DNA of 32,675 nucleotides from a virus (taxonomy: Duplodnaviria; Caudoviricetes). Positions 2,376-32,362 of the stretch are shown here, piece after piece; the first letter of the stretch is position 1; every line of letters starts with the position of its first letter. The notes below the pieces were generated by a model. It had not been told where the DNA came from. It did not search any database and saw only the letters and a program-made list of their open reading frames with translations. Both the position numbers and the translations under genes were made by a program. The DNA is taken from IMG/VR virus record IMGVR_UViG_3300043400_000063, positions 1 to 32,675 of that record; one strand, given 5' to 3'.

Positions 2376-4181
2376 ATGCATAAAATAATAGCTGAATTCT
2401 TCGAAATCGATTTGAGTACCGTTGACATTACTACAACGGACGAAAACTCAATGTTTTTAGATAAGTATACTACAAAGTATTCCTTTCCATTTTCTTTAGA
2501 ATTGACCAATGAAAATCAGCGTAATTTTCAGGACTTACTGGATCATTGTTCTAAAGAAGTTACCACCGAGTTTGATATAACCTATGTGTTTGGGAACATA
2601 AAGGAAGCAGGAATTCTGACTGTTGACACATTGAATGAAACAATAAATTGTCAATTGCAATATGGAGTTGATGAGTTTCCAAATTTTAATAAAAAACTCA
2701 ATGAAATAGAACTTCAAAAAGTAACAACAACTGATGTCTATGCTCACGCAAAAACAATAATAGACAAAACATGGCCTGAAGTAAACTATAATTATCCGCA
2801 AATCATTACGGACAGATACGATACCACACAATCAACCTGGGCGTACTTTCAAAAGATATTCAATAACTACAAGAATGGGGACTTTGTTACAAACGAAGTG
2901 GTAAGCGGTACTCCAAATAATCGAAATCTCATGTTACCACTTCCTTACAAAATGCATATCCTGACGCAAGGTTTTGCACAAGCAGGCTATACATTGAAAG
3001 GGGATGTGCTGAATATTGAAACATTAAAAAAGGAAATACTATATGCGGATTGTGATTACAATAAAATTCTAGATCAAATCGATATTAATACGCTTATACT
3101 AGGAACTGACAGGGTAAGTTCTTCAGGGAATAAAGCCGACTATCAAACTTTTGTCACGCTTCCTTCAAAAGGAAGGTATCGTGTTTTGGGAACGGCTTAT
3201 ATTTATGGAAGATGGAAAGAGTTAAGCGCAGTGCTGATTAGATATCGTGGAAGAAGGCTTTTCATTGCTATGAAAACAGAACGCCGACATCATTCAGGAT
3301 ACCTCTATAGCTATAATGTAGATTTTACTTTTGATACAATTAATGACGGTCAACCAGATGAGTTAGAAATTATTAGCTCTCAATTTAAAAAAGATGATGG
3401 ACAAATACTGGATATCAATACCTCTTCCCTATTTCTTTATAATTCTCTTGGGGTAGCTATTCCAAACATTGTTCAAAACGATGATGTTGATTTGAACAGA
3501 GTAGTTCCAGATGTCACTTTTGGAAAATTTGTAACAAGTATTAAAAACACTTATAATCTTGATTTGCGCTTGGAAGGTAAAGATATTTATATGGATTGTG
3601 TAAACTCAAAAATAAACTATGAAGATGCTATAGATTTATCAGAATTTGAAATGTTTTCTGAACGAATCTATAACAAAGGAATTTCATTTTTGCTAAAATA
3701 CCAAGACGCTAACAACGAAATAAACAATCATACAAAAGTGTTTTTTGATGATGATGGTATTAAAACATCAGGGTTTACAGAAAACGAAAAAACAAATCCT
3801 ATCGAAATAGAATCATTTCCTTTAAAAAACGAATTCAAAGAAGGAGTGCAAACCGCTTATGCCGTGGAATCCGAAAAGCAAAAAATGTATACCGTTTTAT
3901 ACGGAGGATTGAATAGCGATGGATTAAACCTAACTGAAGATGTAGGTCCTATTCTTATACCAAACCTAGTAGAGAATTATTATAATGATTGGTTTCGCTT
4001 TAGAATTAATGGTATTGGATACAAGTTTATATTTTCCAGTTATATTGAGCAAATCAAAAATTTGTCTGCTAAAAATAAAATATTCAACTTCGGAAGGTAC
4101 TTCGTAATCAAAACGCTTGTGAAACGACAAATTAAAAAAGACCTTAACGAAGTTGAAATAGATTGCTTTACTTTAAAATAA
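2376..4181 (+). CDS. Probable tail/baseplate structural protein
   Basis: 601 aa. N-terminal ENSMF...YSFPF pattern typical of Bacteroidota phage minor tail proteins. 3' end overlaps the convergent integrase by 9 bp. Confidence 0.55.
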   Translation: MHKIIAEFFEIDLSTVDITTTDENSMFLDKYTTKYSFPFSLELTNENQRNFQDLLDHCSKEVTTEFDITYVFGNIKEAGILTVDTLNETINCQLQYGVDEFPNFNKKLNEIELQKVTTTDVYAHAKTIIDKTWPEVNYNYPQIITDRYDTTQSTWAYFQKIFNNYKNGDFVTNEVVSGTPNNRNLMLPLPYKMHILTQGFAQAGYTLKGDVLNIETLKKEILYADCDYNKILDQIDINTLILGTDRVSSSGNKADYQTFVTLPSKGRYRVLGTAYIYGRWKELSAVLIRYRGRRLFIAMKTERRHHSGYLYSYNVDFTFDTINDGQPDELEIISSQFKKDDGQILDINTSSLFLYNSLGVAIPNIVQNDDVDLNRVVPDVTFGKFVTSIKNTYNLDLRLEGKDIYMDCVNSKINYEDAIDLSEFEMFSERIYNKGISFLLKYQDANNEINNHTKVFFDDDGIKTSGFTENEKTNPIEIESFPLKNEFKEGVQTAYAVESEKQKMYTVLYGGLNSDGLNLTEDVGPILIPNLVENYYNDWFRFRINGIGYKFIFSSYIEQIKNLSAKNKIFNFGRYFVIKTLVKRQIKKDLNEVEIDCFTLK

Positions 4182-5360
4182 GTTGTCAAGTAAAAATATT
4201 TCAGAGTTAGCATCGCTCTGAACTATATGTGCGTAGATCATTGTTTGACTAATCGTTTTATGACCTAAAAGCAATTGTAGCTTTTCTACTTGTCCACCAG
4301 CTCGCAAAAAAGAAGTTGCGAAAGTATGGCGCGCTACGTGAAAGCTTACTTTTTTGTTGATTTTTAATCTCAGCATTATTTTCTTCAACTCATCATTGAT
4401 GTGTTGGTCTGCAAATTTCTTTTCAAATAATAAAGGCTCGTGCGCAATAATCGCAAGGGCTTTTTTATTTAAAGCAATGCTTTGTGTTTTTCTAGTTTTT
4501 TGAGCAACAAAAGAAACAAATTCATCTTGAAAGTAAGAGCGTTTCAATTTTTGTACATCCGAAATTCGTAATCCAGTCATACAACTAAATAAAAAATAAC
4601 CAAGTATCAGGCGGCTTGATGGGTCAATATAATCAGAATGATAGTAACCAAAACACCTTTTTAATTCAGATGGATTTAAACTGGTTCTGTTTCCCTTGGT
4701 GCTTCCCACCTTTATTTCATCAACATTCAAAGCCAATTGAATGCCTTGTTTTTTAGCTAATCCAAGAAATTTTTTCACAGCCGCCAAATTCCCTGCTACT
4801 GTTGTCGCTTCATTGCCTAATCCACGCAAATGTTTTTTAAATTTATCAATCCAATTTAAATTGATATCCTGAAACGTTACGTCATCGTCATAGGCTTTCA
4901 ACTTCTTCCACACCGATTTATATCTATTATAAGAAGAGCGTTGCATCATTACCTTTTCTTCCTCCAACATCATTTCATAGAAAGCCGTAAACCGAATCCG
5001 AGGCATGCCGTTTAAGAATTCATTTTTCAATTGCTCAATAGTCAAAACGCGATCCGCTAACCGATAAGATGTTTTAATTTTTGTGAGTTTAGAAACGATA
5101 TTGTCTAAGATTAAATTGGTGTCGATATTCTCCTGAGATATCGGTTTTAATCGTTGCTTTTCTTTATCCCACTGTTCAATATAAACATCGAGATCGAGAT
5201 TAATGCGTTCTTTTTTTGAATTAGAACGAAGTGTGAGAATAAGCGGAGTCTTTCCGTTTGATTTTTTGTATTCTCTAAAAGTGAAAGATTCTTTCATTGG
5301 CACGGTAAATTTAGTCGTGGCCAATAGCGTGTCCATTTTGGATTGATAAAGGGTTAACAT
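4173..5360 (-). CDS. int: Site-specific tyrosine integrase
   Basis: 395 aa. Catalytic motifs TGLRISD, AQKT, HVARHTFAT, LLGH, TMIY. N-terminal arm-binding-type region. Confidence 0.95.
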   Translation of the reverse strand: MLTLYQSKMDTLLATTKFTVPMKESFTFREYKKSNGKTPLILTLRSNSKKERINLDLDVYIEQWDKEKQRLKPISQENIDTNLILDNIVSKLTKIKTSYRLADRVLTIEQLKNEFLNGMPRIRFTAFYEMMLEEEKVMMQRSSYNRYKSVWKKLKAYDDDVTFQDINLNWIDKFKKHLRGLGNEATTVAGNLAAVKKFLGLAKKQGIQLALNVDEIKVGSTKGNRTSLNPSELKRCFGYYHSDYIDPSSRLILGYFLFSCMTGLRISDVQKLKRSYFQDEFVSFVAQKTRKTQSIALNKKALAIIAHEPLLFEKKFADQHINDELKKIMLRLKINKKVSFHVARHTFATSFLRAGGQVEKLQLLLGHKTISQTMIYAHIVQSDANSEIFLLDNLF

Positions 5361-7150: not shown

Positions 7151-10020
7151 TGAGCTACGTAAAAGAACAAGACATATTTGATGCAACCAACGGAGGTCTA
7201 GACATTATCTTATCGTATTATCCCAATGCAAACAAGGTTATCTCTAAAGTAGCTAAACAATTCAAACTAAGAGAATCAGAAAAAACAGCTTCGGCTTCTT
7301 TAAAATTATTGGCAAACGGTGTTTGGGTGGTAACTGATTTTGGTGGTGACCAAAAATCAAGAAATGGAATACAAGTATGTGCTTTAGAAGAAAGCATTTC
7401 GCACGGTGAAGCCTGTGCTCTTTTGGGGGCTCGTTTCCAAATCAAAGGAGCGGAATTGCAAGTAGTAAAACCAATCATCGAAAGAAGAAGTTTAAAAGCA
7501 GATGAAACACCAGGTACTTACCATTTCGCTTTTAAAGATTTTACACCAAAAGAATTGGCTTTGTTAGGGCCACGTGTAAACGAAAAAATATGTCAGGAAT
7601 ACCAATTGCATTCTTGCGCCTCGTTTTCTTATTGTAAGGAAAACGAAACCATTACCACAACATCCACAGAGGAATACCCAATTTTTGTTTTTGACTTTGG
7701 CACTTGGCAGAAAATCTACCAACCCAATTCCTTCGAAAAACAATTCCGTTTTCGTTACGCTGGAGCCAAACCAAAACGCCACGTTTTTGGATTGAAACAA
7801 ATTGAAGAAGAATACAAAAAACTGAAAGCAGCTTACGAAGAGCACTTTAGTATTGACGATTTAGAGGATGAGGAAAAGGATAGCAAAAAGAAAAAAGACT
7901 ACAAGTTAGATGCTGTTTTTGTGGTAAGCGGTGGTTCTGACGGCTTGAACCTACGAAGCTTTAATAAGTTTCCAATTTGGTTCAATTCTGAAAGCGAGCA
8001 TTTGACATTTGATGATTTAAAAAAATTAAAAGAATGGGCAAAAGAAGTGTATTACGTAGCCGATTTAGACAATACAGGTATCAAGCAAGCGGTAGAACTT
8101 GGTTTGAAATATTTAGATATAAAACTGCTTTGGTTACCCGAAAAGCTAAAGGAGTTTAGAGACAAACGCGGAAATCCTTGCAAAGATTTTAAGGACTATG
8201 TAGAGAAGTTTTATAACAAAGACTACTCTAGCGCCTTTACCAATGCGCTAGACAAATTGATCGCTAACGCTCTGCCTTTTCAGTTTTGGACAGAGTATTT
8301 CAGTAACAAAAAAATGAACTACAACCTTTCCAATACCAGACTCTATCACTTTTTGGCACACATGGGATTTGGGAGATATGAAGATCCAAACATAAAAGAA
8401 GGCTTTGTGTACATTAAGAAAGAAGGCAGTATAGTAAAGGTGTTGCACCCTTATGAAATTGAAAATTACGTGCATCAATTTTTACAAGACCGTCAGATGA
8501 ATCCAGACCTTCGGGATTACATATACAAAAGCAACCAATTAGGGGAACGTTCTTTATCAAAGTTGCCAAAAGTAAGTGTCGATTTCACAAGAGCGGATCG
8601 CCACACGCAGTACTTATTCTTTAGCAAAAAAGTATGGAAAATAACAGGTAGCGAAATCAAAGAGTTCAAGCAAGGCGAAGTCGACAATTATGTTTGGGAA
8701 GATAAAGTGATTGATTTCAATGTCAAAAAAGAAGAAATGCCACAATTCAAAATAAGCACCGATGCCGAAGGGAATTATGATGTTGAAGTCTTGAAAAAAG
8801 ACAATCCGTTCTTTAACTATATAATCAATGCTTCTCGTGTACACTGGAGAAAAGAACTAGAGGAATCCTTTGAGAACAGACCAGAAATAGAAGCCGAAAC
8901 CTATTTTAAAAAAAATCAGTTCAACATAGCAGGAACCCGATTAACAGAAGACGAAGTGTATGAGCAAAAGATGCATTTGATTAACAAAATCTATTCCATT
9001 GGATACCTCCTGCACACCTACAAAGATGATAGTAGACCGTGGTGTTTGTTTGTCATGGACAACAAAATATCCGAAACTGGAGAAAGTCACGGAGGTTCTG
9101 GAAAGTCAGTTGGTTTTGGAAATATGAATCACATCCTAAAGCGTAGGTTCTACATCAAAGGACGTGACCCCAAGGTGACCCAAAACGATTTTATCTACCA
9201 CGGAGTAACTGAAGATACCGACTTTATTTTGATTGATGATGCCAATCAGTATTTGGATTTTGGTTTTTTCTACTCCGAGATTACAGGTTCTTTGAAAGTG
9301 AATCCCAAGAACGGCCAACCGTATGAGATTCCGTTTGCCAAGTCGCCCAAGTTTGTGATCACCTCAAACTTTACTATTAAAGATGATGGGCCATCAACCG
9401 CCAGACGTTTGTTGTTTTGTTCCTTTTCGGACTATTACCACGAAAACAAGGACGGTGAATACAAACAGAGCCGTAATATCTCAGATGATTTTGGAGGACG
9501 CAATTTGTTTCGAGATTTTACCGAAGCCGAATGGAACACCTTTTACAACTTTTGCGCACAGTGCATTCAGTTTTATTTGTCGCATCCGGGCAAAATCAAC
9601 CCGCCAATGGACAATGTAACCAAACGGAGCTTGCGTGCCGAAATGGGAGAAGCTTTTGAAGGTTGGGCGGATTCCTTCTTTGCTAACAAAGAAACGGACG
9701 AAATGGGTAATGAAGTGGACGAATTCAAGTATCTGGACAAATACTTCTCCAAAGAAGAAGCTTTTGATGAGTTCATGAAAACCACCAAGCAAGGCAAATG
9801 GAGTACCAATAAATTCAAGAAAGCCATGAAAGCCTACTGCCAATTGAACGGATTTATTTTGAACCCCAAAGATTTGAACGGTGCCAATGGTCGAATTACC
9901 AAAAGCATCAAAGGAAAAACACAAGAAGTGTTTTACATCAGAACCATAGAACAAACCATTCCTACCATCACGGGTGATGTAACGGAATACAACAACGAAG
10001 AAGATATTTTTAAATCATAA
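7150..10020 (+). CDS. Primase-helicase (TOPRIM plus C-terminal P-loop NTPase)
   Basis: 956 aa. TOPRIM motifs VFVVSGGSDG and YVADLDNTG. Walker A GGSGKS, Walker B ILIDDA, sensor ITSNF. Confidence 0.85.
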   Translation: MSYVKEQDIFDATNGGLDIILSYYPNANKVISKVAKQFKLRESEKTASASLKLLANGVWVVTDFGGDQKSRNGIQVCALEESISHGEACALLGARFQIKGAELQVVKPIIERRSLKADETPGTYHFAFKDFTPKELALLGPRVNEKICQEYQLHSCASFSYCKENETITTTSTEEYPIFVFDFGTWQKIYQPNSFEKQFRFRYAGAKPKRHVFGLKQIEEEYKKLKAAYEEHFSIDDLEDEEKDSKKKKDYKLDAVFVVSGGSDGLNLRSFNKFPIWFNSESEHLTFDDLKKLKEWAKEVYYVADLDNTGIKQAVELGLKYLDIKLLWLPEKLKEFRDKRGNPCKDFKDYVEKFYNKDYSSAFTNALDKLIANALPFQFWTEYFSNKKMNYNLSNTRLYHFLAHMGFGRYEDPNIKEGFVYIKKEGSIVKVLHPYEIENYVHQFLQDRQMNPDLRDYIYKSNQLGERSLSKLPKVSVDFTRADRHTQYLFFSKKVWKITGSEIKEFKQGEVDNYVWEDKVIDFNVKKEEMPQFKISTDAEGNYDVEVLKKDNPFFNYIINASRVHWRKELEESFENRPEIEAETYFKKNQFNIAGTRLTEDEVYEQKMHLINKIYSIGYLLHTYKDDSRPWCLFVMDNKISETGESHGGSGKSVGFGNMNHILKRRFYIKGRDPKVTQNDFIYHGVTEDTDFILIDDANQYLDFGFFYSEITGSLKVNPKNGQPYEIPFAKSPKFVITSNFTIKDDGPSTARRLLFCSFSDYYHENKDGEYKQSRNISDDFGGRNLFRDFTEAEWNTFYNFCAQCIQFYLSHPGKINPPMDNVTKRSLRAEMGEAFEGWADSFFANKETDEMGNEVDEFKYLDKYFSKEEAFDEFMKTTKQGKWSTNKFKKAMKAYCQLNGFILNPKDLNGANGRITKSIKGKTQEVFYIRTIEQTIPTITGDVTEYNNEEDIFKS

Positions 10021-12191: not shown

Positions 12192-12554
12192 ATGAACACC
12201 ACATCCTTAAAAGAACAAATCATAGCTGCTGCAAACAATAGCACTGAGATCAACGGAAAGAATTTCTGTTCCCACACCTTTGAATCTATAATTGATGCTG
12301 TTTTAGAATCTTTTTCATCGGTAAAACCCTTGCCGTGGAAAACCCTGCAATATTCCAAAGGCTTGCAAGCCGTAACCCCTTTTGGAAGTTACTGCATTGC
12401 TCACACTACCAAAGGCATCGAAATATCAAACACCTTCCCCGGCTATCGAAAAGCACCCAAGCAATTCGCCACCACCATAGCAGAAGCCAAGGAAATGTGT
12501 CAAAAAGATTTGGCCAAGCGATTGAAAGGAGTAATCGAATTAGAGATAAATTAA
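12192..12554 (+). CDS. Hypothetical protein
   Basis: 120-aa ORF after AAAAATC-ATG leader. Confidence 0.7.
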   Translation: MNTTSLKEQIIAAANNSTEINGKNFCSHTFESIIDAVLESFSSVKPLPWKTLQYSKGLQAVTPFGSYCIAHTTKGIEISNTFPGYRKAPKQFATTIAEAKEMCQKDLAKRLKGVIELEIN

Positions 12555-12573
12555 TTAAAAAAAACAAAAAATC

Positions 12574-12822
12574 ATGCAAGAATTAGAATCAACAAAAGGA
12601 AAGAAAGTAACAATACCAAAAAGAGTAAAACGATTTGCAGTAGCCTATTATACAAAGTTTAATGGATGGGAAAACTCAATGCGTTTTCATGCAACACCAG
12701 AAAGCGCCTTAGAAGATTTTTTTAGAATGAACGCAAATAGAGAAGGCAATGATTTCAATCCTAAGTTTTACACCGTTTATGAGTTGGAACTAGAGCTTCC
12801 AATAATCGAAGGAGTTGTTTAA
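12574..12822 (+). CDS. Hypothetical protein
   Basis: 82-aa ORF after AAAAATC-ATG leader. Confidence 0.65.
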   Translation: MQELESTKGKKVTIPKRVKRFAVAYYTKFNGWENSMRFHATPESALEDFFRMNANREGNDFNPKFYTVYELELELPIIEGVV

Positions 12823-12829
12823 CGTCATC

Positions 12830-12961
12830 GCATAACGTTGAGCATAACTCTAGTTACGGACTAAGTAAGCCGAAACATTCAGATTAAAACCCGTATCACT
12901 GATACAAAACAATTTATAAATTCAAGACCGATACCGTAATTAGTGTTATGCATTGTTGGCA
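12830..12961. repeat. attC-like hairpin site 1
   Basis: GCATAAC-gttga-GCATAACTCTAGTTACGG ... CCGTAATTAGTGTTATGC-att-GTTGGCA. 132 bp; inner arms complementary at 16/18. Confidence 0.8.
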
Positions 12962-12986
12962 GATCGGTTTTTAATATCTATTATAT

Positions 12987-13436
12987 ATGAAAAAAATACA
13001 CATTAATAACGATGATCATTATGCAACCCCACCAGAATTGTATAATGAATTAAACAAAAGGTTTGATTTTACTTTTGATCCTTGCCCATATAATGAAAAT
13101 GATCATGAATTTGATGGTTTGATCGTTGAGTGGGGAGAAAGAAATTACATAAATCCGCCTTATTCGCAAAAAAGTAAAGAATTGTTTATAAAAAAAGCAA
13201 TAAAAGAAGCTGAAAAAGGTAAATTATGTGTTTTATTGATACCTGTAAGCACATCAACTAAATTATTTCATGATCATATAAAGCCAAACGCTAAAAGTAT
13301 TGAATTTTTAAAAGGTAGAGTAAAATTTGGTAAACGTGATCATAATGGAAATTTTTATTATCCATTAAATTCAAAAGGTAAAATTCAAAGTGGAACGAAA
13401 GATAGTATGATCGTTATTTTCGATGGTCGCACTTAA
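12987..13436 (+). CDS. Phage-type DNA N6-adenine methyltransferase (PF05869-like)
   Basis: YATPPEL, FDPC, W..YINPPYS, VLLIP, GRVKF. Confidence 0.85.
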   Translation: MKKIHINNDDHYATPPELYNELNKRFDFTFDPCPYNENDHEFDGLIVEWGERNYINPPYSQKSKELFIKKAIKEAEKGKLCVLLIPVSTSTKLFHDHIKPNAKSIEFLKGRVKFGKRDHNGNFYYPLNSKGKIQSGTKDSMIVIFDGRT

Positions 13437-13442
13437 ACTGTC

Positions 13443-13573
13443 TGCCAACGTTGAGCATTGTAGCAGTTGTGGTTAGACTAACACGATGTAACGGATAAAG
13501 ACAAATACTAACCGATTAAAAACAAATTATTAATTAAGCCCGATGCCACAATTGCTACAATGCATTGTTAGGG
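13443..13573. repeat. attC-like hairpin site 2
   Basis: TGCCAAC-gttga-GCATTGTAGCAGTTGTGG ... CCACAATTGCTACAATGC-att-GTTAGGG. 131 bp; inner arms complementary at 17/18. Confidence 0.8.
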
Positions 13574-13598
13574 AATCGGCTTTTTAACACGAAATTCT

Positions 13599-14510
13599 AT
13601 GGAATATTTGACAAATAAATCCACTTTCATAAAAATGCAGAATGCGAACTCAGAAGAGGCTATCTTAAAATTAAAAAAAGAAAGTATTGATATTATATGC
13701 ATCGACCCACCGTATTTATATTTAAAAAACCAAAAATTAGAAAGAGAGTTTGATGAAATAAAATTCTTTGAACAATGCAAAAGAGTTTTGACGCAAGATG
13801 GCTTTATAATTATGTTTGGTCGTGGTGTTTCATTTTATAGATGGAATTGCATATTATCTGATTTAGGGTTTACTTTTAAGGAAGAAATTGTTTGGGATAA
13901 AAGAATGACCTCTTCGCCAGTTTCTCCGATTTCTAGAGTTCACGAAACTATTTCTATTTATTGTAAAGGAAAAGCTTCTTTAAAAAAAGAAAAAGTGCCA
14001 TACATTGAACAAAAAGAATTTGATTTAAGTTCAGTTGTCGCGGATGTAAAAAGAATAAAATCTGCCTTAAAGAATCCAATTGATTTTAATGAGATATTGT
14101 CTTTTTTAGAAAAAAGAGAAATTTCACAAAGAGGAGATTTAAAAACAATAGGAAGAAATGTTACGGTTCAATCAAAATTGAAATTACAGGCACAATCTTT
14201 AAAAACGGTTCAGTCTGTTTCTAATGGAATGAGGGAAAAAAGCATAATATCAATTTTAAGAGACCATTACACGTCCATACATCCAACTCAAAAACCTGTA
14301 AAGTTGTTAGAGAGGTTGCTAAAGCTATGTCTACCTAATAAATTCAATGAAACAATATGGGTGGCTGATTTTTTCGCTGGCTCATTTTCTTGTAGTGAAG
14401 CCTGCTATAATCTAGGAGTTAATTTTATTGGTTATGAAATTGATAAAGAGTATTTCGACAAAGGTGTAAAAAGAATGGAAGAAATTCAATTTCAAACTAA
14501 ATTGTTTTAA
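13599..14510 (+). CDS. Beta-class N6A/N4C DNA methyltransferase
   Basis: IDIICIDPPY (motif IV), HPTQKP, VADFFAGS (motif I), GYEID. Confidence 0.92.
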   Translation: MEYLTNKSTFIKMQNANSEEAILKLKKESIDIICIDPPYLYLKNQKLEREFDEIKFFEQCKRVLTQDGFIIMFGRGVSFYRWNCILSDLGFTFKEEIVWDKRMTSSPVSPISRVHETISIYCKGKASLKKEKVPYIEQKEFDLSSVVADVKRIKSALKNPIDFNEILSFLEKREISQRGDLKTIGRNVTVQSKLKLQAQSLKTVQSVSNGMREKSIISILRDHYTSIHPTQKPVKLLERLLKLCLPNKFNETIWVADFFAGSFSCSEACYNLGVNFIGYEIDKEYFDKGVKRMEEIQFQTKLF

Positions 14511-14523
14511 ACAAAAAATAATT

Positions 14524-14664
14524 ATGAGCATATTTCCAGAAAGGTTAATGGGTAGAAAAATACCTATTGAAAATATTCCTAAATTTTATGTAAAAAAAGG
14601 TAAAGTTTATGAAACAAAATCGAATAAAGAAGTTAAACGGAATGTTGTTCAAGCTGTTCCCTAA
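14524..14664 (+). CDS. Small basic protein (46 aa, not in ORF track) in the second cassette
   Basis: MSIFPERLMGRKIPIENIPKF...VQAVP. Its TAA stop lies inside CCCTAAC. Confidence 0.45.
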   Translation: MSIFPERLMGRKIPIENIPKFYVKKGKVYETKSNKEVKRNVVQAVP

Positions 14665-14697
14665 CTACCTACTACACGCCATTCAATAAAGTGAACT

Positions 14698-14931
14698 ATG
14701 AATTTATCCAGCAAAGGCAATAAGTTAGCCGAGTTCTTAGATGAGAAAATGCAAGAGAAAGCATTTACAAATGATGACTTAGTTCATTTTATTGAACAAG
14801 CAGGTAGATATCTCAACTTGCAAACCATTCCGGACTATGCTACACAGCGCCAAATGAGTTACAACGGCGTCAAAAAACATCGTGAGATAAGGAAAATATT
14901 CAATGTAAAGTTTGTAATAGACAACGACTAA
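14698..14931 (+). CDS. Small protein with possible HTH, next to the cassette array
   Basis: 77 aa. LQTIPDYATQRQMSYNGVKK resembles a winged/MerR-type HTH. Confidence 0.65.
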   Translation: MNLSSKGNKLAEFLDEKMQEKAFTNDDLVHFIEQAGRYLNLQTIPDYATQRQMSYNGVKKHREIRKIFNVKFVIDND

Positions 14932-14934
14932 GCC

Positions 14935-14963
14935 AAAACCGCTCCCACCAGAGCGGTTTTTTT
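14935..14963. terminator. Bidirectional intrinsic terminator
   Basis: AAAACCGCTC-ccacca-GAGCGGTTTTTTT between convergent ORFs. Confidence 0.8.
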
Positions 14964-15350: not shown

Positions 15351-15604
15351 AAAACCTAGAAAAAAATGTAATTTTGTAATTTCTGCTAAAACCCCCAATG
15401 TTTTCAAGGGGTTTACTATTACATTTTATATTTTCATTTGTAACGTGAATTACAAAAAAAATGTAACATAAAATAAAATTACATTTTTACATTTCTCTGT
15501 TACTGCCAAATTACAAAACCGATGTAATTTAAAAACCCTTATTTTATAAGGGTTGAGAGGGTAAAAAAACCTAAAATTACAAAATTACATTTTTTTCTGG
15601 TTTT
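15351..15604. repeat. Symmetric AT-rich repeat region, candidate replication origin
   Basis: Perfect 25-bp inverted repeat at 15358-15382 / 15574-15598, two internal AACCC..GGGTT palindromes, many TTACA/TGTAA units. Confidence 0.6.
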
Positions 15605-15706
15605 TTTGGAGAAACACAAAAAACTAGAAATAAACTACAGGTATATTATATATCTCTTTTGAGATGATTTTGTAAGAAAAAAATAAACTGTTAGTTGATT
15701 TTTTCT

Positions 15707-25803: not shown

Positions 25804-25845
25804 AAGTATTAAGTATTGAGTATTAAGTATTAAGTATTAAGGTTT
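25804..25845 (+). repeat. Heptamer tandem repeat (AAGTATT)x5-6
   Basis: aagtatt aagtatt gagtatt aagtatt aagtatt aaggttt. Confidence 0.85.
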
Positions 25846-25866
25846 AACTAATTAAAAACTTTGAAA

Positions 25867-26709
25867 ATGAAACAAAAAGTATTAGCGTTCTTTCAGGCGA
25901 TGCCCGCGGAACCATATGAGCAATTTAATGAGGCTTTTGCCTTGTATCGAAATTCTCCTGCCAAAAATCCTAGTGCAGAGCGTTCTTATAATGCTTCTGG
26001 TTACTCTCCGCATATGCTTGAGAGTTTGTTGTATGATTTGCAAAAAGCTTTTGATATTACCGACACGGAACGCTATACGAAGTTAGAAGTTAGAAGTGAG
26101 AAGGAAGAGGGAGGTCAGAAGTTAGAAGTTAGAAGTGATGGTGAAGTGGAAAATAAGAAGTTAGAGGTTTCAGATAGGGACATCGATGTCCCTCAGTTAA
26201 CTGAATTCCAAAAAGATTTTATTCCTATTCGTGAAGACTTTCCTTTTTTGAACGATAAAGATTGTCCGAATGAATTGAAAATTCTTGTAGCGGATAAAAT
26301 TACGGTTTGGAAAGACTATGAAGCTGCTCAAGAAAAGATTAGACTGATTAATGAAAACAAGCTAGCTTCTCAAGATGGGGAATTGGAGAAACTTGCTAAA
26401 ATCTCTGTAGATTCTTTCGAAGAAAACCAAAGAATCTACGATGAGTTGAACGCTTACAAGAACACTGGATTAGTGTTGGGTGTGCATCCCATTTTCAAGG
26501 AATTGAAAATAGCTAGAGAAGTAGAGGCTATGACCAATGATGAATTGATCAAGTACAAAAATGCTTCGGCTAAATATTTCTCGGTAAACAAAACTGCATT
26601 GGCTAAAGCACAAAAAGAAAATGACACCGCCAAAGTACAGGAAATTGAAAACCGTGTAGCGGAGCGTAGTCAAAAACTGTTTTTGGTAAATAAAAAGTTG
26701 GGGGTGTAA
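25867..26709 (+). CDS. Hypothetical helical protein with internal KLEV(R)S repeats
   Basis: ATG 25867. REDFPFL...CPNELKILVAD motif. GAAGTTA heptamers at 26079-26170. Confidence 0.7.
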   Translation: MKQKVLAFFQAMPAEPYEQFNEAFALYRNSPAKNPSAERSYNASGYSPHMLESLLYDLQKAFDITDTERYTKLEVRSEKEEGGQKLEVRSDGEVENKKLEVSDRDIDVPQLTEFQKDFIPIREDFPFLNDKDCPNELKILVADKITVWKDYEAAQEKIRLINENKLASQDGELEKLAKISVDSFEENQRIYDELNAYKNTGLVLGVHPIFKELKIAREVEAMTNDELIKYKNASAKYFSVNKTALAKAQKENDTAKVQEIENRVAERSQKLFLVNKKLGV

Positions 26710-26770: not shown

Positions 26771-27097
26771 ATGAATAGAGAATATGTAACGTTTGGCGAA
26801 GCTTTGGAAGCTTTGAGAGAAGGAAAAGTGGTTTTTAGAAAAAACTGGGAAGAAACGGGAATGTTTGTTTTTCAACAATTATCTACTTCTGTTAAAAGTA
26901 ATATTGTTCCAAAAATGCAAAGTTTACCAGATAGCGTAAAGGAGGTGTTTCAAAAAAGATTTGACAATCCAGATATGCAAATAAAAGAGATTTACTATGG
27001 TTTGCAATTGTCTTTGGTGAATTCAAGTAATTTAATTGTAACATATATTCCTTCGATTGAGGATTTGTTTTGTGCAGACTGGGTTATTTTAGAATAA
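26771..27097 (+). CDS. DUF2829 / Tad2-like anti-defence sponge protein
   Basis: TFGEALEALREGKVVFRKNW..GMFV and YIPSIEDLFCADWVI. Confidence 0.8.
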   Translation: MNREYVTFGEALEALREGKVVFRKNWEETGMFVFQQLSTSVKSNIVPKMQSLPDSVKEVFQKRFDNPDMQIKEIYYGLQLSLVNSSNLIVTYIPSIEDLFCADWVILE

Positions 27098-28952: not shown

Positions 28953-30624
28953 AGACAAAGATGTTCGTAGCGAGTTTGGCTCGTGGGTAAAGCAACTCAT
29001 TTTTTTGATTGCTCCCAAAGACCTTAGATTGATTGCGGGACGTGCGATGGCAAAAACCTCAGACATTATTGCGGAGCGTTCGCAGCATATTTGTTGGGAT
29101 ATGCCTAGAAGCTATCAGGTATTAGTTTCGGACACGTATATGAACGCGATGAAAAACGTGGTTCCTACCTTGCTCGAGGGTTGGAACCGTAAAGGATGGC
29201 GTGAAGGAATTCATTATGTGACCGACAAACGACCTCCCTCCCACTTTAAACTGCCGTACAAACCTGTAGAGGCTTACAAACATTCGATTTCTATTTATAA
29301 CGGATGCTTTTTCAACTTGGGGTCGCTGGACCAACCAGGAGGATTGGCGGGTGGTTCGTACCAACATATGTATGGTGACGAAGCGCGTTTGTTGAAATTT
29401 GCTAAGCTAAAGAAACTAACGCCTGCTATCCGTGGGGAATACGCTATGTTTGGCGGTTCTGTGTACTACAGAGGCACTACATTTACTACAGATATGCCCA
29501 ACGTGATGGACGGTGACGATGATTGGATTATGCAGGACGAAAAGAATATGGACCTGAACCAAATCAAATTGGCGCTTGAAGTAGGTTTAGTTTTGAATGA
29601 AATCAAAAAGGAAATATTGTCGAACAAACAAGTTGGGAATTACGATGCGATTGAGAAGCTTCAAGGCAACTTAATTCGTTGGACAGAACGCTGGGTTCGC
29701 GTGCGTAAGAACTCGATGTTCTTTTATGTGGTTTCTTCCTTGGTTAACGTGGATATTTTGACCGAAGGCTATTTTGCGGACAGCTTGAAAGCTTTGGGTA
29801 TTGAGGAATTCAAAAGTGCAATTCTTTCTTTGAAAATCAATTTGAAGAAAGGCGAAAAGTTTTATGGCGACCTGGGCGAACATCATTTTTATGATGATGG
29901 TATTTTAGGTTCTTACTACGACAATTTCTCGTTGACGGATGAAATAGAGGAAACGAGTTTGGCGCTGCGCTATCTCGACAAAACCAAAAAGCTAGAGGCT
30001 GGAATGGATTTTGGCGATATGTGTAGTATGATTACGGGTCAAGAGCGGGGAGAATATTTGTACATCCTGAAAGAGTTTCACACATTGGCACCTGAAAACG
30101 AAGTGCAGTTGGGTAAAAAGTTTTGTGCGTTCTACAAACATCATCCGGTTAAGGTTTTGGACTTGTACTATGACCGTTCGGGAAATCAGAACAGCAAAAC
30201 CAAACGCGACTGGGCAAACGCTATCAAACAAGCGATTGAGTACAACAACGGCACAAGAACTGGCTGGGTCGTTAACCTGATGTCTTTGAATCAGGCTACC
30301 ATTTTGCAGGAAGAGGAATTTAACTTTGCAAAGGCGTTATTGGGAGAAACAAGGAAAGGTTTACCAAAAATCAAAATTGACCGTTTCCAGTGCAAACACT
30401 TGAAAAGTTCGTTGGAGCTCACGAAGATTAGAATCAAAACCGATAATAAAGGTTCGAAAACCATTCACAAGGATAAATCTACAGAATCCCTTCCTATTCA
30501 TTTGCGCCCGATGTATTCCACGAACTACAGTGATGCATTTAAATATTTTGTATACCGTAGAAACTTTGTGAAGAAAGTAAACACGTACTCGGATTATCGA
30601 GGTAGTGATCCTAGTGTTATTTAG
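28924..30624 (+). CDS. terL: Terminase large subunit
   Basis: Walker A-like IAGRAMAKT, Walker B MYGDEAR, motif FTTD, RNase H-like AGMDFG and SDAFKY. Confidence 0.85.
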   Translation: MSRKTAVSHKDKDVRSEFGSWVKQLIFLIAPKDLRLIAGRAMAKTSDIIAERSQHICWDMPRSYQVLVSDTYMNAMKNVVPTLLEGWNRKGWREGIHYVTDKRPPSHFKLPYKPVEAYKHSISIYNGCFFNLGSLDQPGGLAGGSYQHMYGDEARLLKFAKLKKLTPAIRGEYAMFGGSVYYRGTTFTTDMPNVMDGDDDWIMQDEKNMDLNQIKLALEVGLVLNEIKKEILSNKQVGNYDAIEKLQGNLIRWTERWVRVRKNSMFFYVVSSLVNVDILTEGYFADSLKALGIEEFKSAILSLKINLKKGEKFYGDLGEHHFYDDGILGSYYDNFSLTDEIEETSLALRYLDKTKKLEAGMDFGDMCSMITGQERGEYLYILKEFHTLAPENEVQLGKKFCAFYKHHPVKVLDLYYDRSGNQNSKTKRDWANAIKQAIEYNNGTRTGWVVNLMSLNQATILQEEEFNFAKALLGETRKGLPKIKIDRFQCKHLKSSLELTKIRIKTDNKGSKTIHKDKSTESLPIHLRPMYSTNYSDAFKYFVYRRNFVKKVNTYSDYRGSDPSVI

Positions 30625-31497: not shown

Positions 31498-31913
31498 TAT
31501 TGTTTATTGAAACTCTTTAAAACCTCTGAAGCTATCAGGCTTTTTAGTTGCTTGTAGTAGGTGTTTTTCTGCTCCTGTTGCAACAAAAGCGCTTCTATGT
31601 CTTGCAGTGCTTTTAGTTTTTTTTGAGTGCTTAAATCCTCTATTTTGGGGTTTTCTAAAAGTGGGAGTAGTATTTTTTTGTACTCTCGCAAACTCAAAAA
31701 AGGAATCACAGAGCCACGAAGGTAAATTTTTAAGCTGTTGGAGTTGTAGAGCATAAAACAAATTTCGAAGGCGTTTTTTATATCGGTTTGCAGTTCCCAA
31801 CTGTTGGGAATTGGTTTTTTGAGCGGTCGCCCTGCGTGCAGTCCGTGAGATTGGATATAAAAAACGCTTTCCCCTTCCGTTGGTCGGTCGGGGTTGTAGC
31901 GTGTTATTTTCAT
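31497..31913 (-). CDS. Hypothetical protein resembling half of a type I R-M specificity subunit
   Basis: LRGSVIPFLSL...ILLP followed by a coiled coil ending KQLKSLIASEVL. Confidence 0.6.
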   Translation of the reverse strand: MKITRYNPDRPTEGESVFYIQSHGLHAGRPLKKPIPNSWELQTDIKNAFEICFMLYNSNSLKIYLRGSVIPFLSLREYKKILLPLLENPKIEDLSTQKKLKALQDIEALLLQQEQKNTYYKQLKSLIASEVLKSFNKQ

Positions 31914-32362
31914 AATAAACCGTTATCAGCAAAGGAGTAAAAATTTTCGTCCGTGATAATTAGATGGTCAAGTACTGGAATATCTAAAATTTTGCTCGCT
32001 TCCTTTATTTTTCGGGTTACGGCTTTGTCTGCTTCGCTGGGGTGTAGTGTTCCGCTCGGGTGGTTGTGTGCTATGATGATAGCAGTAGACAAACAATTTA
32101 AAGCGGTGGTAAAAATGGTTCGAACGTCTACAACTGTGCCGGTCATGCCTCCGCTCGATAGCTTGTAAAATCCTACTACCTTGTTATTATTGTTAAGGCA
32201 AAGCAAAATGAATTCTTCGCACCAGTCGAACGTGTCCGCATTAAAAACACGTTGAAAAATATGGTAAGCATCTTTTGAAGATGTGATTTTTAATAGTTCT
32301 GATTTTTTCAATTTCTTATCAAATGAAACTGAAATTTTGATTTCTGGGATGTTGTGATTCAT
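31910..32362 (-). CDS. radC: RadC-like JAB domain protein
   Basis: EEFILLCLN, GGMTGTVVDVR, AHNHPSG...PSEAD, VLDHLII, YSFAD. Confidence 0.92.
   Translation of the reverse strand: MNHNIPEIKISVSFDKKLKKSELLKITSSKDAYHIFQRVFNADTFDWCEEFILLCLNNNNKVVGFYKLSSGGMTGTVVDVRTIFTTALNCLSTAIIIAHNHPSGTLHPSEADKAVTRKIKEASKILDIPVLDHLIITDENFYSFADNGLL

What the first reader, a model, noticed from the sequence alone, without database searches (positions are those of the whole stretch)
12823..14700. Integron-like cassette array inside a phage early operon, with no IntI
Seen: two 131-132 bp elements share the frame AAC-GTTGA-GCAT..[18-bp arm]..loop..[arm]..ATGC-ATT-GTT. Their arms differ (GCATAACTCTAGTTACGG vs GCATTGTAGCAGTTGTGG), yet each pairs with its own partner arm. 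These compensatory changes point to selection on a hairpin. Each cargo block begins with GTT and ends with its complement (GTTGGCAGA...TCTGCCAAC; GTTAGGGAA...TTCCCTAAC). Established: integron cassettes follow this R'/R'' logic. On the minus strand the layout is complete: site G|TTAGGG - cassette - hairpin - G|TTGGCAG - cassette - hairpin - G|TTATGCG. Inference: the phage has a site-specific gene-capture slot. ORFs are antisense to the usual integron convention but co-oriented with the phage early operon, and the recombinase would act in trans.
Basis: partly seen in the sequence, partly recalled or inferred. Interest (0 to 1): 0.92.

Follow-up and report, generated by a model that had tools for sequence, protein, structure and literature searches.

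The report
Phage gene-cassette dock with helper protein
This phage, likely of Flavobacterium, keeps two DNA-methylase genes as hairpin-bounded cassettes docked at a conserved site beside a small predicted DNA-binding gene; related phages show the same slot empty or differently filled, and the recombining enzyme likely comes from the host, an integron-like way for phages to swap accessory genes.

Summary
The array is real. Two ~123-nt hairpins open cassettes of 613 and 1216 bp carrying DNA methyltransferases. Both refutation tests failed. Relatives break at the AAC triplets: an empty allele, an extra cassette and a contig skipping exactly 1216 bp. Host chromosomes fold the same sites on the non-coding strand, so they are not RNA elements. 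That gene hides a second, inverted box at helically phased spacing. No IntI was found. Flavobacteriaceae chromosomes carry matching arrays behind an IntI-like recombinase lacking the I2 insert, the likely enzyme in trans. Sites mostly lack extrahelical bases, and a same-type site failed with IntI1 in Qi et al. 2023, so this is not a canonical integron. This scan noted the cassette system before on other phages; the dock-plus-protein module was not found in its notes or in nine literature searches. Four cultured Cellulophaga phages carry the module, so it is testable. No recombination was shown.

The parts
12574..12822 (+). Left-flank early gene (82 aa); its stop codon plus the next C forms the AAC (12821-12823) that is probably the true left end of the array
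   Evidence: Sister phage L171 is 85% identical over 12548-12826 and then starts another hairpin; a contig of run X7 diverges into another hairpin after 12825
12823..12835 (.).
   Evidence: L171 has a complete 663-bp cassette at this position; 13 bp cannot prove descent
12830..12961 (+). attC-like hairpin 1; crossover inferred between 12835 and 12836; + strand is the predicted folding (bottom) strand
   Evidence: (76 bits; it was in the training set)
12836..13448 (+). Cassette 1, 613 bp
   Evidence: Found as a unit with other neighbours in L171 (96.8% from 12830 to the contig end) and in runs X3, X6, X8, which diverge after 13451
12987..13436 (+). Phage Dam-type N6-adenine DNA methyltransferase, 149 aa
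   Evidence: Pfam PF05869 E 5.7e-17; phrog_111
13443..13573 (+). attC-like hairpin 2; crossover inferred between 13448 and 13449
   Evidence: (68 bits; training set)
13449..14664 (+). Cassette 2, 1216 bp, two ORFs
   Evidence: One contig of run X2 joins 13446 to 14663, skipping exactly 1216 bases (27 letters on the short side, 12 differences, so a sister phage)
13599..14510 (+). N6/N4 DNA methyltransferase, 303 aa
   Evidence: Pfam PF01555 E 1e-29; phrog_67
14524..14664 (+). 46-aa ORF with no family; its stop codon lies in the terminal crossover triplet
14663..14696 (+). attI-like docking site: AAC (14663-14665), 16-nt core, box 1 (14682-14696, quasi-palindrome)
   Evidence: Same layout in 90 of 103 homologous loci; conservation stops at the AAC
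14698..14931 (+). 77-aa platform gene: N-terminal helical hairpin plus C-terminal excisionase/MerR-like winged helix; predicted homodimer
   Evidence: AF2 pLDDT 94; weak fold matches to RdfS (Z 3.8, rmsd 5.2, 53 aligned) and Pukovnik Xis (Z 3.2, rmsd 1.9, 39 aligned); dimer score 0.81, best control 0.02
14782..14796 (-). Box 2: inverted copy of box 1 written into the codons of the platform gene, 85 bp after box 1
   Evidence: synonymous codon constraint, helical phasing
14935..14960 (+). Terminator-like hairpin closing the operon after the platform gene
   Evidence: consensus match only
4173..5360 (-). The phage's own arm-type integrase, 9 kb away; not an IntI and probably not the cassette enzyme
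   Evidence: PF17293 + PF13102 + PF00589; TIGR02249 53 bits against cut-off 265

Best explanation
The stretch is a two-cassette, integron-like gene array whose units are swapped among Bacteroidota phages at AAC triplets, anchored on a conserved phage docking site and likely recombined in trans by the host's IntI-like tyrosine recombinase that lacks the I2 insert. Shown from sequence: cassette borders, variable cargo, empty and filled alleles, reversed ORF orientation, matching host arrays beside that recombinase, no such enzyme on module-bearing phages. Inferred: each hairpin folds as single-stranded DNA on the gene-sense strand and is cut between A and C; cassettes leave as circles and enter at the dock, the distal end of the early operon; only cassettes whose ORF is antisense to attC polarity are read from the upstream phage promoter, which would explain the reversed orientation and the methylase-rich, probably anti-restriction cargo. 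The 77-aa protein is predicted to dimerise and to bind box 1 and box 2, bridging them in a loop of about 100 bp beside the crossover. It would act as an architectural or gating factor for the dock and probably also regulate its own gene.
For: Hairpins lie upstream, not downstream, of the platform gene: 168 in 372 kb against 9 in 503 kb (90 loci). 105 of 158 unique sites have 5 of 5 complementary cassette ends; null mean 3.2, maximum 9. 26 of 46 alignment ends between relatives fall within 10 nt of an AAC, chance about 6%. Empty allele L078-L080 against filled L082; L055/L056 and L022/L095 share both flanks with different cargo. For this phage: L171 with an extra cassette, the X2 joint skipping 1216 bp. 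Longest ORF on the phage-sense strand in 98 of 105 phage cassettes but canonical in 19 of 23 host cassettes. G-T outnumbers A-C 107 to 22 on the phage-sense strand with no G-T credit in the finder. The phage-built model finds 9 sites in the host array L125 and 9 in the prophage array L096 of the same genome. The recombinase is in 60 of 81 Flavobacteriaceae genomes; 18 of its 30 best loci have a hairpin within 1.5 kb downstream, 0 of 30 upstream. A profile of 14 host attI cores scores 53% of 75 phage docks above the 95th background percentile. No such recombinase in 120 module loci; PF00589 in 2 of 32 module phage records. Box 2, located by protein alignment in 79 loci: Ile ATT 68 of 68 (162 of 428 elsewhere), Val GTT/GTG 75 of 76 (151 of 308), spacing phased at 10.5 bp, R 0.69 against 0.39 shuffled, 0 of 5000. 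Dimer score 0.81, best control 0.02, runs agree in at least 95% of contacts, pLDDT at least 88; 20 of 30 solved dimers and 1 of 23 monomers reach the mark.
Against: No recombination, circle, binding or expression was observed. The window's own dock scores only at the 84th background percentile under the host attI profile. The host of this phage is not known, so its recombinase was not seen. The X2 joint rests on one contig with 27 letters on the short side, below the tool's caution line, from the sample that may be the source. The fold matches of the small protein are weak (Z under 4; no Foldseek hit at E 0.001). In four Cellulophaga phages the gene sits directly before a phage integrase, an Xis-like position. 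Host attI sites mostly lack the box and hosts lack the gene beside their recombinase, so the enzyme works without it. Loci are partly redundant and related, which inflates all counts and p-values. Deleting I2 abolishes IntI1 activity (PMC7790495, passages), and Cury 2016 judged I2-less recombinases near attC not to be IntI (PMC4889954, passage).
Confidence: 0.7

Rival explanations
1. The cassette array and host enzyme are as described, but the 77-aa protein is only an autoregulated repressor or a prophage excisionase; its boxes are operators and the dock works without it.
For: Box 1 lies mostly 1-5 nt before the start codon and box 2 inside the gene, a classic repression-loop layout. In four Cellulophaga phages the gene precedes a SAM_5 phage integrase. 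Host attI sites and the P12002L dock lack this gene.
Against: The AAC-to-box distance is fixed at 15 or 16 nt in 90 of 103 loci and the unit sits in 72 different downstream gene clusters among 100 loci. 12 of 14 near-complete module phages have no PF00589 match, so there is usually no integrase to serve.
Confidence: 0.3
2. The recombinase comes from another source: a co-infecting phage with its own Xer-like enzyme, or this phage's arm-type integrase.
For: Earlier scan notes describe phage arrays ending beside a small Xer-like recombinase (AI notes, not checked here). This phage and the Cellulophaga phages encode a tyrosine integrase.
Against: Most module phages lack any detectable tyrosine recombinase. 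The host enzyme is common (60 of 81) and sits beside sites of the same family. Phage-type cassettes occur inside host-type arrays.
Confidence: 0.15
3. Box 1 and box 2 are the arms of a fold-back hairpin or cruciform, so the dock is a derived attC recombined as folded DNA rather than a double-stranded attI with a protein loop.
For: 14660-14809 folds at z -4.5 with the boxes paired; the boxes covary across loci (996 pairs against 964 +/- 6; relatedness not controlled).
Against: Pairing outside the boxes, which an attC needs up to the R box, is not conserved at any offset. A hairpin would not need 10.5-bp phasing of its loop.
Confidence: 0.12
4. An ordinary CALIN: canonical attC cassettes picked up passively from a bacterial integron and moved by a classical IntI.
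For: R'/R'' logic and G-T skew match canonical attC (PMC5027507). Phage CALINs with methylases are published (PMC9892861). Some attC sites recombine without extrahelical bases (PMC5027507, passage).
Against: TIGR02249 over cut-off in 0 of 50 genomes or records. 3'-arm bulges are rare, 11 in 105 sites. The same-type site P12002L_attC1 was the one of six that failed with IntI1. Cargo is phage-like and reversed, and a dedicated dock is conserved.
Confidence: 0.06
5. The hairpins are RNA elements (processing or termination signals) of the early transcript, unlinked to gene mobility.
For: In phages the G-T-rich folding strand is the mRNA-like strand.
Against: In host arrays the same sites fold on the strand opposite to most ORFs (G-T 73, A-C 10, finder gave G-T credit; 19 of 23 ORFs canonical). 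Breakpoints sit at the AAC. No Rfam match near a gathering score.
Confidence: 0.02

Closest known systems
Phage CALINs of Qi et al. 2023 (PMC9892861), above all Polaribacter phage P12002L
   Same: attC-like sites in a Bacteroidota phage flanking DNA methyltransferase genes, no IntI. Their P12002L_attC1 has the geometry found here and maps to 30009-30055 of that genome on the gene strand.
   Different: In the text and supplement that I read they describe no antisense cassette logic, dock, host enzyme or accessory gene. Their attC1 failed with IntI1. Their 'divergent' attC2 is, by my reading, the terminal dock of that array read backwards; the same sequence ends a second array in P12002L. P12002L has no homolog of the 77-aa gene.
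Classical integrons (IntI, attI, attC; class 1 and Vibrio chromosomal)
   Same: Conserved AAC crossover, complementary R'/R'' cassette ends, folded sites with G-T skew, one terminal insertion site, a gene transcribed away from the array where intI would stand.
   Different: No IntI; candidate enzyme lacks the I2 region (matches TIGR02249 positions 2-179 and 238-315 only, 169-213 bits against 265) and lies upstream of and co-oriented with its array in hosts. Extrahelical bases mostly absent, 2-4 extra nt in the spacer beside the R box instead. Phage ORFs are reversed. A 77-aa winged-helix gene stands in the intI position.
Excisionases / recombination directionality factors (RdfS, Pukovnik Xis, Tn916 Xis) and MerR-type winged helices
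   Same: C-terminal half has the small winged-helix fold in three searches, all weak; gene lies next to a recombination site.
   Different: Extra N-terminal helical hairpin predicted to form a symmetric dimer; paired quasi-palindromic boxes rather than head-to-tail repeats (recalled for Xis); usually no phage integrase in the genome.
Integrative mobile elements exploiting Xer (CTXphi)
   Same: A phage uses a host tyrosine recombinase on folded single-stranded DNA without I2 (PMC7790495, passage).
   Different: Here the phage would use the host enzyme to load genes into itself, not to integrate into dif; the enzyme is not XerC or XerD by NCBIfam cut-offs.

Membership tests
Integron (complete) | intI gene with the I2 insert next to the array | tested here: not met
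   No IntI in the window or in 50 genomes/records; the host candidate lacks about 40 model positions across the I2 region
Integron (complete) | attI site at one end of the array where new cassettes enter | tested here: met
   Conserved terminal site, variable cargo starting at its AAC, empty allele; activity not tested
Integron (complete) | Cassette ORFs oriented from attI/Pc towards attC | tested here: not met
   98 of 105 phage cassettes reversed; hosts canonical in 19 of 23
attC site | R'/R'' boxes with conserved AAC and complementary cassette ends | tested here: met
   (105 of 158 at 5 of 5)
attC site | Hairpin kept by structure, not sequence, with G-T skew to the bottom strand | tested here: met
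attC site | Extrahelical bases on the L'' arm | tested here: not met
   None in either window site; 11 bulges on the 3' arm in 105 phage sites, 1 in 34 host sites; a T bulge on the other arm in 19
attC site | Recombined as a folded bottom strand by an integron integrase | not testable with these tools
   The one published same-type site failed with IntI1
CALIN | Two or more attC sites without a neighbouring intI | tested here: inconclusive
   Met with my own finder and model; IntegronFinder and HattCI models were not available
Excisionase / RDF winged helix (77-aa protein) | Xis-type winged-helix fold | tested here: inconclusive
   Z 3.8 (rmsd 5.2, 53 aligned) and 3.2 (rmsd 1.9, 39 aligned); no Pfam family for the window protein
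Excisionase / RDF winged helix (77-aa protein) | Controls direction of a cognate recombinase | not testable with these tools
   Adjacent phage integrase only in the four Cellulophaga phages among those examined
XerC/XerD (host candidate enzyme) | Scores above XerC or XerD family cut-offs | tested here: not met
   162-198 bits against 330-335; best family NF040815, 193-222 bits against 220 (5 proteins)

The most novel reading that the evidence does not exclude
Bacteroidota phages carry a portable 300-bp 'integron adaptor': an attI mimic plus a dimeric winged-helix protein that loops two phased boxes, recruits the host's I2-less proto-integron recombinase and gates capture of a phage-specific, reverse-oriented cassette pool, part of which is stored silently in host chromosomal arrays.
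Probability: 0.35. Interest if true: 0.93.

Novelty: new variant of a known kind. Interest (0 to 1): 0.8.

Why it matters
It would give a site-specific mechanism for part of phage mosaicism: accessory and anti-restriction genes swapped as cassettes rather than by illegitimate recombination. It points to integron-like arrays in most sampled Flavobacteriaceae, a group where surveys report almost none (PMC9024848, passage). An I2-less enzyme acting on folded sites without extrahelical bases would be a living test of how integron integrases arose from Xer-like ancestors, since I2 is held to be necessary (PMC7790495, passages). Four cultured Cellulophaga phages share an identical dock and gene with four different cargos, so the model can be tested directly.

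Tried and rejected
A first strict hairpin finder missed most sites and was replaced. Rfam: two matches far below gathering score. The window's platform protein and hairpin 1 had no match among 50,697 annotated phage records; a relative's protein gave the Cellulophaga hits at only E 5e-3, accepted because the dock matched. Foldseek PDB and viral searches: nothing at E 0.001; Atlas: unnamed phage clusters only. An exact dock pattern found only 2 viral loci, both already held. The metagenome scan gave no close sister phage with long flanks. No RNA holder listed. No circle junction was seen; all runs were contigs, which drop rare forms. The sigma-70 promoter scan gave fewer sites than shuffles and does not fit Bacteroidota. 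A right-hand AAC boundary after the platform gene, which would make the module itself a cassette, is not conserved. Host cassette proteins had no tblastn match in the phage loci held. Cassette cargo of this window was not found in 301 Flavobacterium genomes searched; only the hairpins matched, in 2. The platform gene was found in 4 of 301. Cassette-2 methylase relatives examined (L174-L179, 6 of 80) showed no hairpin with my finder, and 12 of 24 cassette-1 relatives showed none: these genes also occur outside arrays or beside sites that I missed.
Full report
Context. The window is a whole 32.7-kb virus record with tail, lysis, protease, repressor and arm-type integrase genes: a temperate tailed phage. 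Its platform gene is 63-65% identical to copies in Flavobacterium genomes, so the host is likely a Flavobacterium. Runs holding the stretch are freshwater metagenomes; the two full holders may be its source.

Observation. AAC triplets at 12834, 13447 and 14663 define cassettes of 613 and 1216 bp. Cargo: a Dam-type methylase, an N6/N4 methylase and a 46-aa ORF. Hairpin 1 alone is not more stable than shuffles (z -0.5), hairpin 2 is (z -2.6), so two sites alone would be modest evidence. A covariance model built from 65 family sites finds only these two in the window (both were in the training set).

The dock. I searched with the 77-aa gene right of the array. After removing 9 duplicates of the first scan and one cut locus, 90 of 103 loci have AAC, 15 or 16 nt, then the box TTCAAWAAATTGMAC, mostly 1-5 nt before the start codon; the 13 misses are cut, degenerate or mis-picked. 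The set includes near-identical pairs. Left of the AAC the sequence is unrelated between loci. The unit sits before 72 different downstream gene clusters among 100 loci, so it is a portable platform and not a feature of one phage lineage.

Arrays. Hairpins lie upstream of the dock, 168 in 372 kb, against 9 in 503 kb downstream; 0 to 9 per locus within 7 kb. In 105 of 158 unique sites the five bases after GTT complement the five before the next AAC (null mean 3.2, maximum 9); the rest probably include missed sites. The longest ORF is on the phage-sense strand in 98 of those 105; cargo is phage-like, many methylases by inspection. Structure is kept while sequence changes: 88% of cells paired, covariation 0.76 against 0.21 shuffled and at most 0.16 slid (the structure was derived from the same alignment).

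Content is not invariant. 26 of 46 alignment ends among relatives lie within 10 nt of an AAC, chance about 6% (pairs are not independent). L078-L080 have the left flank joined directly to the dock, while L082 has the same flank and dock with 555 bp and two hairpins between. L055/L056 and L022/L095 share both flanks with different cassettes. For this phage, L171 has the same left gene, an extra 663-bp cassette, then cassette 1. Contigs of runs diverge at 12825, 12832-12836, 13447-13451 and 13570, and also at places inside genes. One X2 contig joins 13446 to 14663, skipping exactly 1216 bp; it has 27 letters on the short side and 12 differences, so it is a sister phage, not an excision caught in this genome. 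L171 and X7 put the left end at the AAC 12821-12823, making 12823-12835 a probable relic. The RNA reading also fails: G-T pairs outnumber A-C 107 to 22 on the phage coding strand in an unbiased scan, but in hosts the same sites fold on the strand opposite to 19 of 23 ORFs. The skew follows recombination polarity, as in canonical attC (PMC5027507, passages).

The enzyme. TIGR02249 passes its cut-off in 0 of 50 genomes or records. The best host matches cover model positions 2-179 and 238-315 with about 18 residues between, so the I2 region is missing; they have the SAM_4 domain and score nearest to NF040815. In G006 this gene is followed by a G|TT site and nine hairpins of the same family, and a prophage in the same genome carries nine more before the platform gene. 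The enzyme is in 60 of 81 Flavobacteriaceae genomes at E 1e-60. Of its 30 best loci 18 have a hairpin within 1.5 kb downstream and none upstream; 6 of the 12 misses end within 300 bp. A profile from 14 host attI cores places 53% of 75 phage docks above the 95th background percentile, but this window's dock only at the 84th. Phage-type reversed cassettes occur in host-type arrays (L125, L303), one with a hairpin 79% identical to hairpin 2. No such enzyme lies in 120 module loci, and PF00589 matches 2 of 32 module phage records, 2 of 14 near-complete. Action in trans by the host enzyme is therefore the best inference, not a result.

Non-canonical sites. The window's arms have no bulge. Among 105 phage sites there are 11 bulges on the 3' arm, where the L'' extrahelical bases belong, and the spacer beside the R box has 2-4 extra nt on the 5' side. 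This fits an enzyme without I2, the helix that holds extrahelical bases (PMC7790495, passages).

The 77-aa protein. AlphaFold gives a confident model (pLDDT 94): two helices, then a small winged helix with weak likeness to RdfS and Xis, echoed weakly by viral and Atlas searches. Two copies are predicted to dimerise: score 0.81, best control 0.02, runs agreeing in at least 95% of contacts, pLDDT at least 88; 20 of 30 solved dimers and 1 of 23 monomers reach that mark. The gene contains an inverted copy of the box (14782-14796). Located by protein alignment in 79 loci, its codons are fixed beyond protein need: Ile ATT 68 of 68 against 162 of 428 elsewhere, Val GTT/GTG 75 of 76 against 151 of 308, Gln CAA 64 of 64, Glu GAA 71 of 71. 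Box spacing clusters near 76, 87 and 96 bp; periodicity peaks at 10.5 bp, and shuffling the box-to-ATG gap against codon number lowers R from 0.69 to 0.39 (0 of 5000; relatedness not controlled). That favours a protein-bridged loop in duplex DNA over a fold-back, although the region also folds well (z -4.5). Whether the loop serves recombination or only autoregulation is open.

Cultured examples. Cellulophaga phages phi18:3, phi13:2, phi46:3 and phi19:3 have an identical 78-aa homolog and identical dock core, with four different cargos whose last cassette ends complement in each. There the gene precedes a phage integrase, which supports the excisionase rival for those phages.

Literature. Qi et al. 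2023 (PMC9892861; I read parts 1-4 of 7 of the text, through the conclusion, and part 1 of 2 of the supplement; figures and the Dryad file not seen) report CALINs in phages, including methylase cassettes in Polaribacter phage P12002L. Their attC1 is of the type found here and was the only one of six that failed with IntI1. Their attC2 matches the terminal sequence of two arrays in that phage read backwards, which would explain their 'divergent' sites. [quoted passage not shown] Nine searches (listings only for the other papers) showed no description of the reversed cassettes, the dock, the platform gene or the I2-less host arrays; subscription journals are not covered.

Earlier scan notes. At least 13 findings describe the same reversed cassette system, several naming a host Xer-like enzyme, and others describe phage arrays with their own recombinase. 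I had located the host enzyme and its array before reading them. A search by sequence with the dock and gene returned nothing.

Verdict. A real integron-like capture slot that works like an integron but fails membership on the integrase, the extrahelical bases and ORF orientation: a new variant of a known kind. The dock with its phased boxes and dimeric protein is the part that appears undescribed. All mechanism beyond the sequence comparisons is inferred.

Noticed in passing
window 15351-15382 and 15574-15605: 32-bp inverted repeat, 94% complementary, 191 bp apart, inside an 800-bp gene-poor stretch rich in short TTACA/TGTAA repeats between early and late genes; possibly an origin or packaging signal.
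   Followed up: no
window 26771-27097 and 31910-32362: Tad2-like anti-Thoeris gene and a RadC/JAB gene outside the array.
   Followed up: no
window 25806-25847 and 26079-26156: Short tandem 7-bp repeats (GTATTAA-type before, GAAGTTA-type within ORF 25861-26709).
   Followed up: no
L286 (P12002L) about 29150-29250 and 37180-37300: Two arrays end in the same non-coding terminal sequence, a second type of dock without the 77-aa gene; it is the site that Qi et al. tested as attC2 and that recombined with IntI1.
   Followed up: partly
L303 (G375:C78): Host-type array holds the same phage-type reversed cassette twice, and long units between hairpins with metal-resistance-like genes (ArsR-, MerT- and chromate-transporter-like by inspection).
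   Followed up: no
L302 (G393:C63): Phage-type array of at least 12 cassettes; one hairpin is 93% identical to hairpin 1 of the window but heads a different ORF, so hairpin and cargo can be recombined separately.
   Followed up: partly
L125 8957-9340, L171 1755-2348, L093 5593-6315: Many phage-type cassette ORFs start inside the hairpin loop and read through the 3' arm, so the site supplies the translation start.
   Followed up: no
L113-L124, L254-L283: The host I2-less recombinase gene often lies within a few hundred bases of a contig end, as expected where repeated cassette sites break assemblies.
   Followed up: partly
L096 about 7930-7970 (G006): A prophage array of nine cassettes whose dock has lost the AAC, possibly a frozen array.
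   Followed up: no
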